DNA of 32,000 nt. Origin: Candidatus Saccharimonadota bacterium (GTDB lineage: Bacteria; Bacillota_I; Bacilli_A; Mycoplasmatales; Hepatoplasmataceae). Below the pieces are notes generated by a model. The model was given only the letters and a program-made list of their open reading frames with translations. It was not told the origin of the DNA and did no database searches. The stretch covers positions 270,001 through 302,000 of the forward strand of contig AP027131.1 in the NCBI GenBank assembly GCA_027925225.1, read 5' to 3'. This document shows, piece after piece, positions 1,317-20,931 of this stretch. The position numbers and the translations under genes were made by a program. Every line of letters starts with the position of its first letter. Within the stretch, counting starts at the first letter, position 1.

Positions 1317-2447
1317 ATGAATAATAAAAATAATGCAAAAATATATGACATTTTAATAATAGGTGGAGGAATTATAGGAATAAGTATTGCTAAAGAATTC
1401 ATCGATAATAAAAAAAGTGTTTTTTTAGTTGAAAAAGACCCCAAAATATTACAAGAAACTTCTTCTCATAACAGTGGAGTAATTCATGGTGGTTTTGATG
1501 CGACTCCTGGAACATTAAAAGCAAAATTTAATGTTGAAGGCCGCCATCTTTATGAAAAATTATATTTTAAAAAAGAAACATCTTTTTTATGACAAAATTC
1601 TGATTCTTATATTTTGGCTTTTGATAAAGAAGAAGAAGAGGAATTAGAAAAACTTTATAATCAAGGAATTAAAAATGGCCTTAAAGCAAAAGAAATGGCA
1701 ATAATTTCTAGAGAAGATATTTTTAAAGTTAATCCTTATATAAATAAAGATGTTAAAAAAGCATTAGTTTGTTATACATCAAAATCAATTAATCCTCAAG
1801 AATTTGGGAATTTTTTATTTCTAAAAGCAAAAGAAAAAGGATTAGAATATAGTTTAAATTTTAAAGTTAATGAAATTTTTAAAAAAAATGATTATTGAAT
1901 TGTTAAATCTGAAGATGGAACAAAAATTAAAGCAAAATTCATTGTAAATGCTTCTGGAGTTTGAGCGGAAGAAATTGCGAAACTTGTTGAAAAAAATCCA
2001 AAATTTAAAATTAAAACAAGAAGAGGACAATATTTAATTATTGATAAAACGCAGAGAAAATATACAACTAATGATATTTTCTTTCTTACTCCAACAAGAC
2101 ATGGAAAAGGAGTAATTGTTGCTCCGCTTTTTGATGGAAGAGTTTTAGTTGGTCCAACAGCAGAAGATAATGTTCCAAAAGATGATATTCAGATTGTAAG
2201 TGAAAGGGTGCTTAAATCTATAAAAAAAATTGGTCGTAAAATTAATTGAAAAATTAATTTTGATCGAATAGAAACAGTGGCTGCTGGTTCTCGCGCAATA
2301 AATGAACTTACAAATGATTTTTATATTGATAAAAGCGAAGAAGTAGATAATTTCTTTCATGTTGCTGGAATTCAATCTCCTGGTTTATCAAGTGCACCAG
2401 CAATTGCAATATATGTTTATAAAAAATATTTAGAATTTAAAAAATAG
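1317..2447 (+). CDS. glpO: FAD-dependent glycerol-3-phosphate oxidase/dehydrogenase
   Basis: Track pieces 1317-1592 and 1614-1898 plus the untracked 3' part form one frame joined only by TGA. The N-terminus YDILIIGGGIIGISIAKE is a GxGxxG FAD-binding fold. The gene sits directly after glpK, as in Mollicutes glycerol operons. It ends at TAG 2445-2447 (376 aa). Confidence 0.85.
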
Positions 2448-2464
2448 TAATTATATTAAGAAAA

Positions 2465-2500
2465 TAAAAAACATAGAAATTTAAATTTCTATGTTTTTTA
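2465..2500. terminator. bidirectional intrinsic terminator between convergent glpO and the 150-aa ORF
   Basis: A perfect 10-bp stem, acatagaaat (2471-2480) / atttctatgt (2485-2494), with loop ttaa. It is flanked by an A-run 5' and a T-run 3', so it looks like a terminator on both strands. Confidence 0.6.
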
Positions 2501-2523
2501 TTTTGATATATTCTAAAACTTAT

Positions 2524-2976
2524 TTAATAATTTTTTTCTTTTTTATTTAAAAAAGATATATAAGAATTTAAATTTTGTTCTCCAACGAGTTCTAAAGTTA
2601 AAGAGTGTATTAATTCATTTTTTTTCTTTTTTGGGAAAAACGAATTTTCAATTTTTATTTCACCTTTTTCATTTTTTCCTATGCTTTTTATTAATTCGTT
2701 TTTACTAAATATATACAAATCACTAAGATTAATAACAGCATCCTTTTTATCAAATGTTTTTATAAAAAAAAGATTTTTTGCATTATTTTGATAATTATTA
2801 TTTTTCTTTGTAAACATTCTTGCAAAAAGATATCTATCATTAGATAACTTTTTTAAATATAAAAAAGGTCTTTTATTTTTATCTTCAATTCCTAGATAAT
2901 TTATATTTGTTTCACTTTCTTTTATAAAAACAAATGAGAACCTTTTTATAGATAAAATTTTTTTTTCGTTTTTCAT
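2524..2976 (-). CDS. hypothetical 150-aa protein, ToxN/AbiQ-like (putative type III toxin endoribonuclease)
   Basis: Intact ATG..TAA ORF with no TGA. Three ordered motifs resemble ToxN/AbiQ as I recall the family: INYLGIEDK (cf. IEYLKEFDDK), KRPFLYLKKLSNDRYLFARMFTKK (cf. PKAFIGIVLEIQGHKYLAPLTSPKK) and AVINLSDLYIF (cf. GLINLKFMIPI). An RNA hairpin region plus a terminator lies immediately upstream. The functional call rests on memory-based motif comparison, not a search. Confidence 0.45.
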   Translation of the reverse strand: MKNEKKILSIKRFSFVFIKESETNINYLGIEDKNKRPFLYLKKLSNDRYLFARMFTKKNNNYQNNAKNLFFIKTFDKKDAVINLSDLYIFSKNELIKSIGKNEKGEIKIENSFFPKKKKNELIHSLTLELVGEQNLNSYISFLNKKEKNY

Positions 2977-3000
2977 TGTATTTAATTTAATTATTTTATA

Positions 3001-3026
3001 AAACTAAAGTGAGTGCCCACTCACCA
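3001..3026 (-). terminator. intrinsic terminator downstream of sepF and 24 nt upstream of the ToxN-like ORF
   Basis: On the minus strand, GTGAGTG-GG-CACTCAC (3024..3009) forms a GC-rich stem. It is followed by TTTAGTTTTAT (3008..2998). The U-tract follows the stem only on the minus strand. Confidence 0.5.
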
Positions 3027-3106
3027 GATCTATCGATTTTACACTAATGGGCTTTTTAGCAACAATCAATAATCCATCAGAAAGGAGGTTAATAATGAAA
3101 ACCTCA
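3001..3106 (-). ncRNA. candidate structured small RNA or leader (putative antitoxin RNA) upstream of the ToxN-like ORF
   Basis: This is the most GC-rich non-coding stretch in the window. A minus-strand TATAAT sits at 3117..3112. Three hairpins follow: 3085-3090/3100-3105; 3044-3050/3074-3080; and the terminator stem 3009-3015/3018-3024. In the second hairpin, the A3046/C3078 mismatch on the plus strand becomes a G-U pair on the minus strand. The transcript ends are predicted, not observed. Confidence 0.3.
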
Positions 3107-3167
3107 CCAACATTATATATTTTAAATAAAAAAATTCTCATTTATAGAGAATTTTATTTAAAAAATT

Positions 3168-3455
3168 TTAATAAAGATCATTTGCGAATTTATCTAATAA
3201 TTCAACAGATGGTGAAAGAAGATAAGTTTTAGAAGAGACTTTTTTATGTTTTCCATTCATTGCATAAAGCACACCCGAAACGAAATCTACTATTCTTAAA
3301 ATTTCATTTTCACTTACATTTTCAAAATCAACAATTAAAACATTTCCTTTTCTAAGCTCGGCAGCCATTTCTTTTGCATCTATAAAAGATTTTGGTTGAA
3401 ATTTTAATAATTCTGAGTTTTTTATTTGTTTTTTATTTTTTTTATTAAATGCCAT
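3168..3455 (-). CDS. sepF: cell division protein SepF (short form)
   Basis: 95 aa. The sequence FQPKSFIDAKEMAAELRKGNVLIVDFENVSENEILRIVDFVSGVLYAMNGKHKKVSSKTYLLSP matches the SepF/DUF552 core pattern. The gene lies directly downstream of ftsZ, with the SD TAGGAGGA overlapping the ftsZ stop. Confidence 0.85.
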   Translation of the reverse strand: MAFNKKNKKQIKNSELLKFQPKSFIDAKEMAAELRKGNVLIVDFENVSENEILRIVDFVSGVLYAMNGKHKKVSSKTYLLSPSVELLDKFANDLY

Positions 3456-6750: not shown

Positions 6751-7191
6751 TTAATCCTTATTTTTTTTATTTTCTGAAATTTTTTCTGCTGCTTCTTCGA
6801 TACTTATTTTATCTTCAGACATTAGTTCTTCTCAAGCTTCAGAAGCAATAATTTCTATTTTATTTCCTGTTCCAATTACTTGCACAGTTTTTTTCATTTT
6901 TGCTTGTTCTAATAAAGATTTAGGAATAAGAATTCTTCCTTTTAAATCTATTGTGATATACATTGAATTTCCAAGTATTTTTCTTTGTAATATACGAGCT
7001 TCTCTATTTAAGTAACTCATACTTAGTAGTAGTCCAGATCATTTTTCAAATTCGTTTTGTGGTCTGAGAACAAGGGTGTTTTCAAATTCTAAAGAAATTA
7101 CAATTTCTTTTTCAAGAAAAGTTCTGAAGGCTTTTGGTATCATAAGTCTTCCTTTTTCATCTACTGAAGTGTTGTAACTTCCAATATTTAA
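6751..7191 (-). CDS. mraZ: transcriptional regulator MraZ (non-ATG start; start uncertain)
   Basis: The track fragment 6832-7020 extends in frame across TGA on both sides. The N-terminus ..LNIGSYNTSVDEKGRLMIPKAFR and the second repeat ITIDLKGRILIPKSLL form the two MraZ/SpoVT-AbrB repeats. There is no in-frame ATG. The candidate starts are TTA 7191 (giving MNIGSY, the canonical MraZ N-terminus), ATT 7185 and GTG 7212. The gene ends at TAA 6751-6753. Confidence 0.85.
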
Positions 7192-7193
7192 TT

Positions 7194-7227
7194 TTTTCCC
7201 ACTTTTTCCCACTACACAATTATTATA
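7194..7227 (-). promoter_or_regulatory. dcw/mraZ promoter -10 box plus tandem MraZ-box repeats
   Basis: On the minus strand, TATAAT (7227..7222) is followed by ..GTGT.. and then two perfect tandem 10-nt repeats AGTGGGAAAA (7213..7204 and 7203..7194). Direct GTGGG repeats with 10-bp periodicity are the known MraZ operator architecture. Confidence 0.5.
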
Positions 7228-9961: not shown

Positions 9962-11656
9962 GTGATAGAAAATAATTTTAAAATTAATAGATTAAACTTA
10001 AATGAAACTGTTAATTTATATGGTTGGATTAACAAAATAAGAAAAATGGGAGATATCATTTTTCTAGATTTACGTGGAAGTAATGGTATTGTTCAAATAG
10101 TTCTTGAGAAAAATCATTTAGATTATGAGAAAGTTTTAAACTTTAAAAATAATGATATTATTTCAATTTCGGGAAAAGTATTTGAAAGAAAAAATAAAAA
10201 TAAAAATATTTTTTCTGGAGACATAGAAATTATTGCTAATAAAATAAATTTAATTTCCGCAGTTTCGAACCAACTTCCTATCTTACCTTTTGAAGAAATA
10301 ACTGCTTTAGAACAAGTGAGAATGAGATATAGATATTTAGATTTAAGAAGACCTAATATTTTTAATATTTTTAAAATAAGAAGCGAATTTAATAAATATA
10401 CAAGAAGATTTTTTGATGAAAATAATTTTCTTGAAATAGAAACGCCTTATCTTACAAAGAGAACATATGGAGGAGCTTCTGAATTAATTGTTACTTCTAA
10501 AAATCACTTAGGAAAAGAATATGCATTAGCACAATCGCCACAAATTTATAAGCAGCTTTTAATGTATTCTGGATTTGAAAGATATTATCAAATTGCTAGA
10601 TGTTTTAGAGATGAAGATTCAAGATCGGATAGACAACTTGAATTTACACAGTTAGATTTAGAAATGAGTTTTATAAATGACAAGGAAATAGAAGAAAAAA
10701 TTTATTTATTAATTGAACTTTATTTTGAATTTATTTTAAAAAATGTTTTTAAAAAAGAAATTTTGCTTCCTTTTAAAAGAATTACTTATAAATACGCATT
10801 AGAGAATTATGGTTCTGATAAACCTGATTTAAGATATGAAAATAAAATTTTTGATTTAATTAAAAATAATTTAATTAAATTAAAAGATAAAAAAATAGCA
10901 AAAGGGATTGCTTTTGAAAAAAATATTTCAATTAGTCAAATTAAAAAAATTAAAAAAGATTTTAAAGATAATTCTATAAATTTTTCTTATTTTTTTGTAA
11001 AAGATGGAATTTATTCTGAAGGAGAAATTAAAGAAGAATTTAAAAAAGATATTAATAAATTTAATAATTTTTTAAATTTATCAAATTATTTTGTAATTTT
11101 TTTAATTTCAGAAGATAAAAATAAATTATTAAATACACTTGGAGAAATAAGAATTAAGGTTGCAAAGAAATTAAATTTAGCGAATAAAGATAAATTAAAA
11201 TTTTGTTGGATTACTGATTTTCCTTTATTTGATAAAGATAAAGAAAATAATTTGGTTTCTAGTCATAATCCTTTTGTTGCATTAAAAGATGAAAGTGATT
11301 TAGAAAAAATAAATTTAAAAAAGGAAAATGAATTATTAAATTTGATGTCTAGATCTTATGATTTAGTTCTAAATGGTTATGAAATAGCAGGTGGATCAAT
11401 AAGAATCAGGGATAAAGAAATTCAAAGGAAGATTTTCAAAATTCTAAAATTAACAAATGAAGAAATTGATAGAAATTTTGACTGACTTCTTACGGCTCAA
11501 TCTTTTGCTACTCCATATCATGGTGGTATTGCACTTGGGATTGATAGAATACTTGCAATACTTTTAAAAAAATCTTCTATAAAAGAAGTTATTGCTTTTC
11601 CTAAGACTTCTCAAGGTACTGATGAATTGAGTGGCGCTCCAAGTGAAAAAAATTAG
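9962..11656 (+). CDS. aspS: aspartate--tRNA ligase
   Basis: The gene starts at GTG. The track ORF 9962-11485 continues over one TGA (..NFDWLLTAQSFATPYHGGIALGIDRI..). Class IIb motifs are present: LAQSPQIYKQLLM, FRDEDSRSDRQLEFTQLD and GGIALGIDR. 564 aa; ends at TAG 11654-11656. Confidence 0.95.
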
Positions 11657-20416: not shown

Positions 20417-20700
20417 ATATTTATAATTTTAATTTAATAATTAAATTTTTAAAGTTAAAACAGAAATTTATATTCACATAAATGAATCTGGTATTTTATA
20501 TAAAAATGAAATTTTTTTATATGTGAAATTAATTTTTTTAAATAATCAATAACATAAAAATTTTTTAAAAAAATATAATAAAAAGAAATAAAATAATTGG
20601 TGTTTCTAAAAGATTAAATAATTTAAAAAAGAAAAAAATCTTTTAGAAAGTTAAGAAAAATATAACTTTTATCATATTTAATATATTTTATACACTAATG

Positions 20701-20706
20701 TATAAT
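20701..20706 (+). promoter_or_regulatory. -10 box (TATAAT, preceded by TG) for the downstream RNA element
   Basis: The sequence cactaaTGTATAATc sits about 6-10 nt upstream of the start of the structured region. Confidence 0.35.
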
Positions 20707-20711
20707 CTTTT

Positions 20712-20856
20712 TGAGGAAAAATGTTTTTTATTCATTTTTTTTCTAAGATTTTAATTAATTAAAGCGTTATGCGACTAGAAAACATGTGTATTCATTAATC
20801 GTAATCTAAGTACGGGCTTCTAGTGCAAGCAACACAATATGTGTTGCTTTTTTTAT
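20712..20856 (+). ncRNA. unclassified small RNA or cis-regulatory leader upstream of nadD-yqeK
   Basis: The element is bounded by TATAAT (20701) and a strong terminator. A 9-bp stem with a bulge, 20771-20780 / 20818-20826, encloses the hairpin CGUA-AUCUAAG-UACG (20800-20814). The region is locally GC-rich in an otherwise AT-rich spacer. It also contains an SD-preceded 13-codon ORF (20721-20762). Confidence 0.35.
20827..20856 (+). terminator. intrinsic terminator
   Basis: The stem aagcaacac (20827-20835) / gtgttgctt (20841-20849) has loop aatat and is followed by a T-run. Confidence 0.65.
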
Positions 20857-20931
20857 TTAAAACAAAAGGATTTATTTTTTTTATCTTAAATAATGTAAAG
20901 TATAATTCTCTAGAAAGTTTATTAAATTAAA

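What the first reader, a model, noticed from the sequence alone, without database searches (positions are those of the whole stretch)
2524..3117. Possible type III toxin-antitoxin-like locus: ToxN/AbiQ-like ORF preceded by promoter, structured non-repetitive RNA and terminator
The protein evidence:
- The 150-aa ORF convergent on glpO has no obvious function.
- Three ordered motifs line up with the ToxN/AbiQ endoribonuclease family as I recall it (ToxN: MKFYTISSKYIEYLKEFDDKV..NPKAFIGIVLEIQGHKYLAPLTSPKK..LGLINLKFMIPI).
- Here the matching segments are INYLGIEDK, KRPFLYLKKLSNDRYLFARMFTKK and AVINLSDLYIF.

The RNA evidence, directly upstream on the same strand:
- This is the most GC-rich non-coding stretch of the window.
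- A TATAAT box sits at 3117..3112.
- About 105 nt follow, carrying three hairpins.
- One hairpin contains a pair that is G-U on the minus strand but an A-C mismatch on the plus strand, which argues for a minus-strand RNA.
- The last hairpin is followed by TTTAGTTTTAT, an intrinsic terminator.
- The ATG lies only 24 nt further on.

Promoter, small RNA, terminator and toxin in that order is the defining layout of type III TA/abortive-infection loci such as toxIN and antiQ-abiQ. Unlike those, I see no tandem 34-45-nt repeats, only UGGUGAG occurring twice 83 nt apart. If the system is real, the antitoxin would be a single-copy structured RNA, a variant I do not know to be described. It would sit in a minimal wall-less bacterium at the 3' end of the cell-division operon.
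Basis: partly seen in the sequence, partly recalled or inferred. Interest (0 to 1): 0.8.

Follow-up and report, generated by a model that had tools for sequence, protein, structure and literature searches.

The report
MazF-like toxin gene with partner RNA
In a tiny isopod-gut mycoplasma relative, a gene for a MazF-type RNA-cutting toxin has no protein antidote gene; it is preceded by its own promoter, a conserved folded ~105-nt RNA and a terminator that move with it as one cassette, so the RNA may be the antidote, which is not known for this toxin family.

Summary
The sequence features are real. On the minus strand there is a promoter-like site (TATAAT at 3117-3112), a ~105-nt three-helix RNA, an intrinsic terminator (3025-2998) and a 150-aa ORF (2976-2524). 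There are no tandem repeats.

The window is from Candidatus Hepatoplasma vulgare. The ORF is not ToxN/AbiQ-like. Four tests place its three-member family in the MazF/PemK endoribonuclease family: Pfam and PHROG hits of a homologue, a profile search against PDB sequences, profile-profile comparison, and Foldseek. The catalytic Arg and Thr are conserved.

No conserved protein-antitoxin ORF is adjacent. In the one close relative (Logan contig L001) the promoter-RNA-terminator-ORF unit lies elsewhere, between glpF and an aminoacyl-tRNA synthetase gene. So the RNA belongs to the ORF, not to sepF. All six stem substitutions keep pairing, and differences concentrate in loops.

In L001 the sepF-downstream slot instead holds a DUF3800-I-like RNA plus a DUF3800 (RNase H-like) gene, with a homologous promoter and 5' hairpin.

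Best reading (about 0.4): a type III-like toxin-RNA module with a MazF-family toxin and a single-copy RNA. The main rival is a purely cis-acting leader. The antitoxin function is inferred, not shown.

The parts
3128..3155 (-). sepF terminator hairpin (AAAAUUCUC / GAGAAUUUU plus U run). Its 3' arm overlaps the -35-like element of the module.
   Evidence: Read directly from the sequence. Not listed by the scan, which requires 3 G-C pairs.
3112..3141 (-). Promoter-like site of the module: -35 ATGAGA (3141-3136), 18-nt spacer, -10 TATAAT (3117-3112).
   Evidence: 10 of 12 matches. The stretch AATGAGAAT...ATATATAATG is conserved upstream of the orthologous RNA in L001, where there is no sepF.
3085..3105 (-). 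P1: 5'-terminal 6-bp hairpin GAGGUU/AACCUC. Its 3' arm runs into the invariant CUCCUUUC (3087-3080).
   Evidence: Compensatory changes across three leaders (GAGGUC/GAUCUC and GAGAAC/GUUCUC in L001). CTCCTTTC occurs once in the window.
3026..3075 (-). P2 domain: 12-bp stem with one bulged A, enclosing hairpin P2a (GCUAA/UUAGU, 3060-3043). Contains the 23-nt invariant core GGAUUAUUGAUUGUUGCUAAAAA.
   Evidence: Two G-to-A changes in the 3' arm turn U.G into U-A in L001. No Rfam match.
2998..3025 (-). P3: intrinsic terminator (GGUGAGU GGGC ACUCACU) with interrupted U tract UUAGUUUUAU. Probably leaky.
   Evidence: 1 found, 0.1 expected. Conserved in L001, with a G.U to G-C change.
2524..2976 (-). 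ORF150: divergent MazF/PemK-like endoribonuclease candidate (annotated hypothetical protein HPAVJP_2500). No Shine-Dalgarno sequence.
   Evidence: Arg36-Pro37 and Thr56 align with the catalytic Arg and Thr of MazF. dN/dS is about 0.41 against the L001 orthologue.
2466..2499 (.). AT-rich hairpin (ACAUAGAAAU / AUUUCUAUGU) flanked by A and T runs. Putative bidirectional terminator shared by ORF150 and glpO.
   Evidence: Read directly from the sequence. Below the G-C requirement of the scan.

Best explanation
A compact module of about 640 bp consists of a promoter, a ~105-nt structured RNA (P1, P2/P2a, terminator P3) and a gene for a divergent MazF/PemK-family endoribonuclease.

Proposed working:
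1. Transcription starts a few nt after TATAAT and mostly stops at P3. This yields an abundant small RNA.
2. Occasional read-through yields a little ORF150 mRNA, which has no Shine-Dalgarno sequence.
3. The RNA acts in trans on the protein as a bound inhibitor or pseudo-substrate, as ToxI acts on ToxN. The module would then behave as a type III-like toxin-antitoxin or abortive-infection cassette.

Shown: the anatomy, the MazF-like nature of the protein, conservation of the RNA structure on this strand, co-inheritance of RNA and ORF, and absence of a conserved protein-antitoxin ORF.

Inferred: toxicity, RNA-protein binding, neutralisation and terminator leakiness.
For: Protein is MazF/PemK-like:
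- Homologue P0003 hits Pfam PemK_toxin at E=1.8e-4 (22.1 bits, cutoff 23.1) and PHROG 1936 'MazF-like growth inhibitor' at E=3.4e-6.
- The family profile A2 searched against PDB sequences gives MazF/PemK/EndoA as its eight best hits (E=0.005-0.07), all with the same register.
- hhalign against four MazF/Kid sequences gives E=5.5e-4.
- All top-50 Foldseek hits are MazF or CcdB (probability up to 0.99).
- The catalytic Arg (RP motif) and Thr are invariant.
- The ORF is kept intact at dN/dS of about 0.41. It evolves faster than sepF and ftsZ (0.05-0.08), as accessory genes do.

RNA is real and belongs to the ORF:
- In L001 the orthologous ORF148 is not next to sepF, yet it carries the same promoter, RNA and terminator.
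- 30 differences fall in 120 columns. Only 6 lie in the 58 paired columns (Fisher p=3e-4), and all 6 keep pairing; random expectation for that is 3e-4.
- Both sequences fold independently into the same three helices.
- The sense strand folds better than the antisense strand.
- GC content peaks here.

No protein antitoxin and no riboswitch logic:
- Small ORFs in the leader are frameshifted between the two genomes. Nucleotide conservation continues past the stop codon in L001.
- No conserved alternative (antiterminator) pairing was found by inspection of the two sequences; the MFE folds show only P1, P2/P2a and P3. P2 abuts P3 directly.

Cassette behaviour:
- In L001 the slot downstream of sepF holds an analogous promoter-RNA-terminator-nuclease unit. 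Its RNA is DUF3800-I-like (39 bits, E=7e-5) and its gene is DUF3800.
- That unit has a homologous promoter and P1 hairpin.
- Four Hepatoplasma lineages carry four different contents after sepF.

Type III toxins share the MazF/Kid fold class and this same operon layout (PMC5086642).
Against: - There is no experimental or transcript evidence.
- Only two RNA sequences exist, about 77-80% identical. Covariation amounts to one double change plus four one-sided changes, and the structure was derived from these same sequences.
- The RNA has no tandem repeats, which define known type III antitoxins.
- The Tyloplasma homologue (L002) sits 4 nt after an aminoacyl-tRNA synthetase gene with no such RNA in 10 kb. 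The protein may therefore be tolerated without this RNA.
- The window ORF itself gives no Pfam hit. The AlphaFold models are of low confidence (pLDDT 52 and 47).
- The P1 hairpin is shared with an unrelated nuclease cassette, so at least that part of the RNA is not toxin-specific.
- Thermodynamic z-scores are modest.
Confidence: 0.4

Rival explanations
1. The RNA is only a cis-acting 5' leader. A 5' stabilising hairpin, a structured domain and a terminator keep expression of a potentially harmful MazF-like RNase very low, or place it under a protein- or ligand-dependent attenuation control. The protein is a solitary or domesticated RNase with no dedicated antitoxin.
For: - The promoter, structured leader, terminator and ORF layout is also that of attenuators.
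- The Tyloplasma homologue has no RNA and is apparently co-transcribed with an aminoacyl-tRNA synthetase gene, which suggests the protein is tolerated alone.
- ORF150 lacks a Shine-Dalgarno sequence, whereas sepF has AGGAGG.
- The P1 head is shared with the DUF3800 cassette, as a generic expression element would be.
Against: - No conserved terminator/antiterminator alternative was found, and P2 stacks directly on P3.
- There is no Rfam riboswitch match.
- The sister DUF3800-I class is described as rarely lying in 5' UTRs and as occurring on either side and strand of its gene, which argues for trans-acting partner RNAs (PMC5737381).
- A 50-nt conserved P2 domain is more than is needed for a plain terminator.
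Confidence: 0.3
2. The locus is a classical type II mazEF-like pair. The 'RNA' region would encode a small protein antitoxin: the 45-aa ORF at window 3140..3003, MRIF...GLLIVAKKPIS...
For: - An ATG-initiated 45-aa ORF spans the region.
- In the GLLIVAKKPIS frame the two substitutions between the genomes are synonymous.
- The N-terminal 21 codons give pN/pS of about 0.27.
- Type II antitoxin genes normally precede mazF.
Against: - A 1-nt indel frameshifts the ORF in L001. There it ends after 29 aa, inside the conserved P2 3' arm, and nucleotide conservation continues beyond its stop.
- The conserved 11-aa peptide is reached from different start codons, with unrelated N- and C-terminal flanks in the two genomes.
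- There is no Shine-Dalgarno sequence.
- The low pN is confounded by conserved promoter and P1 nucleotides.
- All stem substitutions preserve pairing.
- The third leader (DUF3800) keeps P1 by compensatory changes but has no such ORF.
Confidence: 0.07
3. The small RNA is independent and functionally unrelated to ORF150. It could be a housekeeping or regulatory sRNA, or a decaying remnant, that merely lies upstream.
For: - It has its own promoter-like site and terminator.
- The CUCCUUUC / anti-SD-like motif could suggest a ribosome- or mRNA-directed role. This is my own reading of the sequence.
Against: - The RNA and ORF relocated together as one unit. Homology starts at the -35 region and ends at the ORF stop codon.
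- There is a single copy per genome segment searched.
- The RNA core was not found in GTDB representative genomes or JGI metagenomes, which gave only chance hits.
Confidence: 0.1
4. One reading: a ToxN/AbiQ-family type III toxin-antitoxin locus.
For: - The operon layout matches.
- Type III toxins share the MazF/Kid fold class (PMC5086642).
Against: - No ToxN, AbiQ, CptN or TenpN hit in Pfam, PADLOC or PDB sequences. No chain annotated as one of these appears among the 50 Foldseek hits shown.
- No tandem repeats.
Confidence: 0.02

Closest known systems
Type III toxin-antitoxin / abortive-infection systems (toxIN, antiQ-abiQ, cptIN, tenpIN)
   Same: - One promoter, then a non-coding RNA, then a Rho-independent terminator, then an endoribonuclease gene.
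- No protein antitoxin.
- A compact, relocatable cassette.
- The toxin fold class is related to MazF/Kid (PMC5086642).
   Different: - The toxin is MazF/PemK-like by sequence, not ToxN, CptN or TenpN.
- The RNA is single-copy and forms long helices rather than a 2-5.5x tandem array of 34-45-nt pseudoknot units.
- Processing and complex formation are untested.
Type II MazEF / PemIK (Kid-Kis) systems
   Same: - The toxin core aligns with MazF/EndoA/PemK, including the catalytic Arg and Thr.
- The partner element lies upstream of the toxin gene.
   Different: - No conserved MazE/PemI-type ORF is adjacent.
- The protein has about 12 extra N-terminal and about 25 extra C-terminal residues.
- Sequence scores are at or below curated thresholds.
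- A terminator separates the upstream element from the toxin gene.
DUF3800-I RNA (Rfam RF02969) with DUF3800 RNase H-like genes (Weinberg et al. 2017, PMC5737381)
   Same: - A highly structured RNA with a 3' terminator is tied to one nuclease gene.
- In L001 such a pair occupies the very slot that the MazF-like module occupies in the window.
- That pair shares the promoter and the P1 hairpin ending in CUCCUUUC.
   Different: - The central RNA domain is unrelated, with no RF02969 match at E<=10.
- The partner protein is a MazF-like beta-barrel, not an RNase H-like fold.
- The function of DUF3800-I RNAs is itself unknown.
Transcription-attenuation leaders and riboswitches
   Same: Promoter, structured 5' leader and intrinsic terminator just upstream of the start codon.
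   Different: - No conserved antiterminator alternative.
- No known aptamer.

Membership tests
Type III TA (ToxIN/AbiQ, CptIN, TenpIN) | Toxin belongs to the ToxN/AbiQ, CptN or TenpN protein family | tested here: not met
   No Pfam, PADLOC or PDB-sequence hit at E<=10. The profile search hits only MazF-type chains. The top 50 Foldseek hits are MazF or CcdB.
Type III TA (ToxIN/AbiQ, CptIN, TenpIN) | Antitoxin gene is a tandem array of short direct repeats | tested here: not met
   TRF at minimum score 30 finds nothing in 2400-3300. The only internal repeat is the heptamer UGGUGAG, which is not conserved in L001.
Type III TA (ToxIN/AbiQ, CptIN, TenpIN) | Rho-independent terminator between the RNA and the toxin gene, with a single upstream promoter | tested here: met
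   Terminator at 3025-2998 and promoter-like site at 3141-3112. Both are conserved in L001. The promoter is a consensus match only.
Type III TA (ToxIN/AbiQ, CptIN, TenpIN) | RNA binds and neutralises the toxin, and the toxin processes the RNA | not testable with these tools
   Needs toxicity-rescue and binding or cleavage assays.
MazF/PemK toxins (Pfam PF02452) | Profile match above the curated threshold | tested here: inconclusive
   The window ORF and P0002 give no hit. Homologue P0003 scores 22.1 bits against a cutoff of 23.1, E=1.8e-4. It also hits PHROG MazF-like at E=3.4e-6. The family profile against PDB MazF gives E=0.005. hhalign gives E=5.5e-4, probability 30%.
MazF/PemK toxins (Pfam PF02452) | MazF/CcdB-type beta-barrel fold | tested here: inconclusive
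   The top 50 Foldseek PDB hits are all MazF or CcdB, with probability up to 0.99. However, E is only 6e-3 or weaker, TM-scores are 0.25-0.50, and model pLDDT is 52. The second model has pLDDT 47.
MazF/PemK toxins (Pfam PF02452) | Catalytic Arg (RP motif) and Thr (B. subtilis MazF Arg25 and Thr48; residue roles from my own knowledge) | tested here: met
   R36-P37 and T56 are invariant in the three homologues. They align with the RP and T of S. aureus and B. cereus MazF and with R25 and T48 of the typed B. subtilis sequence.
MazF/PemK toxins (Pfam PF02452) | Adjacent protein antitoxin gene (MazE/PemI) | tested here: not met
   There are only 191 nt upstream and 76 nt downstream. Leader ORFs are at most 45 aa, frameshifted between the genomes, and outrun by nucleotide conservation.
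DUF3800-I RNA (Rfam RF02969) | Covariance-model score at or above the gathering score of 44.2 bits | tested here: not met
   No match at E<=10 for 2900-3250. By contrast, L001 5462-5585 scores 39.0 bits and window 20750-20859 scores 35.6 bits. Both are below threshold.
DUF3800-I RNA (Rfam RF02969) | Neighbouring DUF3800 gene | tested here: not met
   The neighbour is the MazF-like ORF150. tblastn finds no DUF3800 similarity at this locus.
Riboswitch / attenuator leader | Conserved, mutually exclusive terminator and antiterminator structures, or a known aptamer | tested here: not met
   No Rfam hit. The MFE and centroid folds of both orthologues show only P1, P2/P2a and P3. The candidate alternative pairings I examined by eye are not conserved.

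The most novel reading that the evidence does not exclude
This would be the first toxin-antitoxin-like system in which a MazF/PemK-family endoribonuclease is held in check by a single-copy, non-repetitive structured RNA instead of a MazE protein. It would bridge type II and type III systems. The module shares its promoter and 5' hairpin with a DUF3800-I RNA / DUF3800 nuclease cassette at the same genomic slot. By extension, the long-unexplained terminator-bearing RNAs associated with DUF3800 would be RNA antidotes or regulators of their neighbouring nucleases, exchanged as cassettes.
Probability: 0.3. Interest if true: 0.8.

Novelty: new variant of a known kind. Interest (0 to 1): 0.6.

Why it matters
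- Known type III antitoxins are all tandem-repeat RNAs paired with ToxN, CptN or TenpN toxins (PMC5086642).
- To my knowledge, and in the literature searches, known MazF toxins are all paired with protein antitoxins.
- A MazF-family toxin neutralised by a single structured RNA would show that RNA antitoxins arose more than once on this fold. Repeat-based searches would miss such systems.
- It would give a concrete, testable function for the DUF3800-I class of orphan structured RNAs, whose discoverers had no hypothesis for them (PMC5737381).
- It would add a toxin/defence-type module to a ~0.66-Mb symbiont genome that was reported to encode no toxins (PMC10928387).

Tried and rejected
- **ToxN/AbiQ membership.** Pfam, NCBIfam, PADLOC and PDB phmmer searches of ORF150 returned nothing. 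Rejected in favour of MazF/PemK.
- **Known RNA families.** Rfam gathering and E-value scans of the locus found nothing. There are no tRNA or tmRNA genes.
- **More homologues.** Two searches of the 5.8-billion-protein set and one exhaustive HMMER search gave only three family members. The GTDB genome scan and the viral scan for the protein found none.
- **More RNA copies.** 20-mer scans of GTDB genomes and JGI metagenomes gave only chance hits, several of them in rluD 'GLLIVAK' codons. blastn, nhmmer and a covariance model of P2-P3 found no further copy in the window or five related loci.
- **Small-ORF reading of the leader.** Examined and judged unlikely.
- **Origin from an rluD gene fragment.** The flanks are unrelated, so I treat the match as coincidence.
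- **Antiterminator logic via the repeated UGGUGAG.** Not conserved in L001.
- **Tyloplasma locus.** No RNA element was found next to the homologue.
- **Supplement of Weinberg 2017.** Not held in the library.
Full report
**Origin and context.**
- ORF150 is identical to hypothetical protein HPAVJP_2500 of the Candidatus Hepatoplasma vulgare MAG. This is a ~0.66-Mb mollicute from the isopod Armadillidium vulgare (PMC10928387).
- The genome uses genetic code 4. Table-11 ORF calls split several genes, and retranslation restores them.
- Read on the minus strand, the local order is mraZ-rsmH-ftsA-like-ftsZ-sepF, then the finding, convergent on glpK-glpO on the plus strand.

**Check of the observation.**
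Coordinates and numbers are given in the observation check above.
- There are no tandem repeats.
- The repeated UGGUGAG exists, but its 5' copy is not conserved in the orthologue.
- Folding energy alone is not exceptional (z = -1.3 and -2.3).

**What the protein is.**
- ORF150 itself has no hit in Pfam, NCBIfam, PADLOC, PHROGs or PDB sequences.
- Three large searches found only two relatives. P0002 (148 aa, 57% identity) comes from a Logan assembly. P0003 (131 aa, about 30% identity) is from Candidatus Tyloplasma litorale.
- The evidence for MazF/PemK membership is:
  - P0003 matches Pfam PemK_toxin (22.1 bits, cutoff 23.1, E=1.8e-4).
  - P0003 matches PHROG 'MazF-like growth inhibitor' (E=3.4e-6).
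  - The three-sequence profile searched against PDB sequences returns MazF, PemK and EndoA as its eight best hits (E=0.005-0.07), all aligning query 28-100 to MazF residues ~16-92.
Parts of two of those sequences (the S. aureus and B. subtilis ones) are checked by the alignments.
  - The top 50 Foldseek hits of the AlphaFold model are all MazF or CcdB. The model has pLDDT of only 52 and TM-scores are low.
- The Arg of the RP motif and the Thr are invariant in the family. From my own knowledge these are the catalytic pair of B. subtilis MazF, Arg25 and Thr48.
- No ToxN, AbiQ, CptN or TenpN match appears anywhere.
- The protein is therefore best called a divergent MazF/PemK-like endoribonuclease. 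Each line of sequence evidence is marginal on its own, but all agree.
- Against its L001 orthologue the ORF has dN/dS of about 0.41, compared with 0.05-0.22 for sepF, ftsZ, ftsA-like and rsmH. It is a maintained but fast-evolving gene.

**What the RNA is.**
- The decisive comparison is L001 (Logan ERR14127475). Its order is mraZ...ftsZ-sepF, then [RNA + DUF3800 gene], then glpO-glpK-glpF on the opposite strand, then [RNA + ORF148], then an aminoacyl-tRNA synthetase gene.
- So the orthologue of ORF150 is not next to sepF. Even so, it is preceded by the same -35/-10 region, the same three helices and the same terminator.
- Homology begins at about AATGAGAAT and ends at the ORF stop codon. The flanks are unrelated.
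- The RNA therefore belongs to the ORF and is not a sepF 3' UTR.
- Substitution pattern in a structure-guided alignment:
  - 30 of 120 columns differ, and only 6 of those fall in the 58 paired columns (Fisher p=3e-4).
  - All 6 keep pairing: one double compensatory change (U-A to C-G) and four changes between G.U and G-C or A-U.
  - Six random stem substitutions would keep all pairs with probability 3e-4.
  - Caveat: the structure was derived from these same two sequences.
- Paired columns differ at about 10% and unpaired columns at about 39%. The latter is close to the synonymous divergence of neighbouring genes (pS 0.33-0.43).
- Both RNAs fold independently into the same architecture and fold better on the ORF strand.
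- No Rfam family matches. No further copy exists in the window or five related loci. The core was not found in GTDB representative genomes or JGI metagenomes beyond chance hits.

**Is the leader a small protein instead?**
- A 45-aa ORF (3140..3003) overlaps the RNA, and its segment GLLIVAKKPIS is conserved.
- In L001 a 1-nt indel shifts the frame. That ORF stops after 29 aa, inside the conserved P2 3' arm.
- The conserved peptide is then reachable only from a different ATG, with unrelated flanks, and nucleotide conservation runs past the stop.
- The pN/pS of about 0.27 for the first 21 codons is confounded by the promoter and P1 nucleotides.
- I therefore keep a small-protein antitoxin only as a minor rival.

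**Cassette context.**
- In L001 the position after sepF holds a promoter, an RNA that scores 39 bits (E=7e-5, below the gathering score of 44.2) on Rfam DUF3800-I, a terminator and a DUF3800 gene.
- DUF3800 is an RNase H-like domain linked to retrons, CRISPR accessory genes and non-coding RNAs (PMC7736814, PMC10910872, PMC13594972).
- DUF3800-I is one of four highly structured motifs with 3' terminators. Their discoverers considered them improbable riboswitches and found DUF3800-I tied to a neighbouring protein gene in either orientation. They had no functional hypothesis (PMC5737381).
- The DUF3800 leader and the MazF-like leaders share the -10 region and the P1 hairpin ending in CUCCUUUC. 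P1 is kept by compensatory changes at three of six pairs.
- Two further lineages carry yet other genes after sepF.
- The picture is a variable slot holding interchangeable units of promoter head, specific RNA, terminator and nuclease gene.

**Mechanism.**
- I favour a type III-like toxin-RNA module (confidence about 0.4). The RNA would be made in excess because of the terminator. The nuclease would be made by read-through from an mRNA without a Shine-Dalgarno sequence. The RNA would act in trans as inhibitor or pseudo-substrate.
- Reasons for this reading:
  - a MazF-type toxin with an intact catalytic pair and no protein antitoxin;
  - strict co-inheritance of RNA and gene;
  - no antiterminator logic;
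  - the parallel DUF3800-I cassette;
  - the shared fold class of MazF and type III toxins (PMC5086642).
- Reasons against:
  - there are no repeats;
  - only two RNA sequences exist;
  - there are no expression or toxicity data;
  - the Tyloplasma homologue lies 4 nt behind an aminoacyl-tRNA synthetase gene with no such RNA within 10 kb.
- The main rival (0.3) is that the RNA is purely a cis-acting expression-limiting leader of a solitary RNase.

**Comparison with known systems and novelty.**
- The locus works most like a type III TA system but fails two defining membership tests, toxin family and repeat array.
- The protein is closest to type II MazF but lacks MazE.
- The RNA is a structural and positional analogue of DUF3800-I but is not a member of that family.
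- I found no report of a MazF/PemK toxin with an RNA antitoxin in two literature searches.
- The genome paper states that Hepatoplasmataceae seem to encode no toxins (PMC10928387).
- I rate it a new variant of a known kind, with interest 0.6. The anatomy is solid and the hypothesis is readily testable, but function is inferred from two genomes.

Noticed in passing
window 20750-20859 (+), with 20463-20549 (+): Second most GC-rich intergenic stretch of the window. It gives a sub-threshold Rfam DUF3800-I RNA match (35.6 bits, gathering score 44.2, E=9e-4) with its own TATAAT (~20701-20706) and terminator. It shares the core UUAAnCGUAAUnUAAGUACGG with the L001 copy. About 200 nt upstream of the match (20463-20549), a 30-aa remnant of a DUF3800 N-terminus (EIYIHINESGIL...) gives tblastn E=0.003. 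This looks like a decayed DUF3800 cassette whose RNA core is still intact, lying between yqeH-like and nadD-like genes.
   Followed up: partly
L001 5430-6225 (+): Directly after sepF in the Logan relative there is a promoter, a P1 hairpin ending in CUCCUUUCG, a DUF3800-I-like RNA (39 bits, E=7e-5), a terminator and a 207-aa DUF3800 gene (Pfam E=6.6e-15). The layout and the 5' head match those of the MazF-like module.
   Followed up: partly
window 3080-3090 (-); L001 9888-9899 and 5474-5485: In the window the 3' arm of P1 and the following bases read ACCUCCUUUCU. As I recall, this is the 3'-terminal anti-Shine-Dalgarno sequence of 16S rRNA. It is paired to an SD-like GAGG. CUCCUUUC is invariant in all three leaders. 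Its meaning is unknown; it could be a ribosome or SD mimic, a processing site or a stabiliser.
   Followed up: no
window 3053-3075 (-): The 23-nt invariant RNA core GGATTATTGATTGTTGCTAAAAA is identical to the codons for the RluA/RluD pseudouridine-synthase motif (TS)GLLIVAK(N) in several unrelated genomes, for example Mesoplasma photuris. The flanks are unrelated, so this is probably coincidence.
   Followed up: partly
L018 10276-11000 (GCA_040777445.1 contig), also L019: In another Hepatoplasma-like lineage, sepF is followed by a 77-aa hydrophobic ORF, then what looks by eye like a duplicated fragment of the sepF 3' end (~10830-10990), then a PIF1-type helicase gene. This suggests an insertion with target duplication. 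The sepF-downstream site differs in all four lineages seen.
   Followed up: no
L002 4996-5001 (Ca. Tyloplasma litorale AP027078.1): The most MazF-like family member (P0003, TYPL_1680) starts 4 nt after the stop codon of a 633-aa class I aminoacyl-tRNA synthetase gene. It is followed by a strong terminator, and no antitoxin candidate is visible. In L001 the orthologue lies just upstream of another class I synthetase gene.
   Followed up: partly
window 6751-7212 (-) and elsewhere: Table-11 ORF calling splits mraZ, glpK, glpO and other genes. They are continuous under genetic code 4 (UGA = Trp). MraZ belongs to the AbrB/MazE-like fold class (faint PF04014 hit on the L018 MraZ). It lies in the same gene string as the MazF-like ORF, and I take this to be coincidental.
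   Followed up: no
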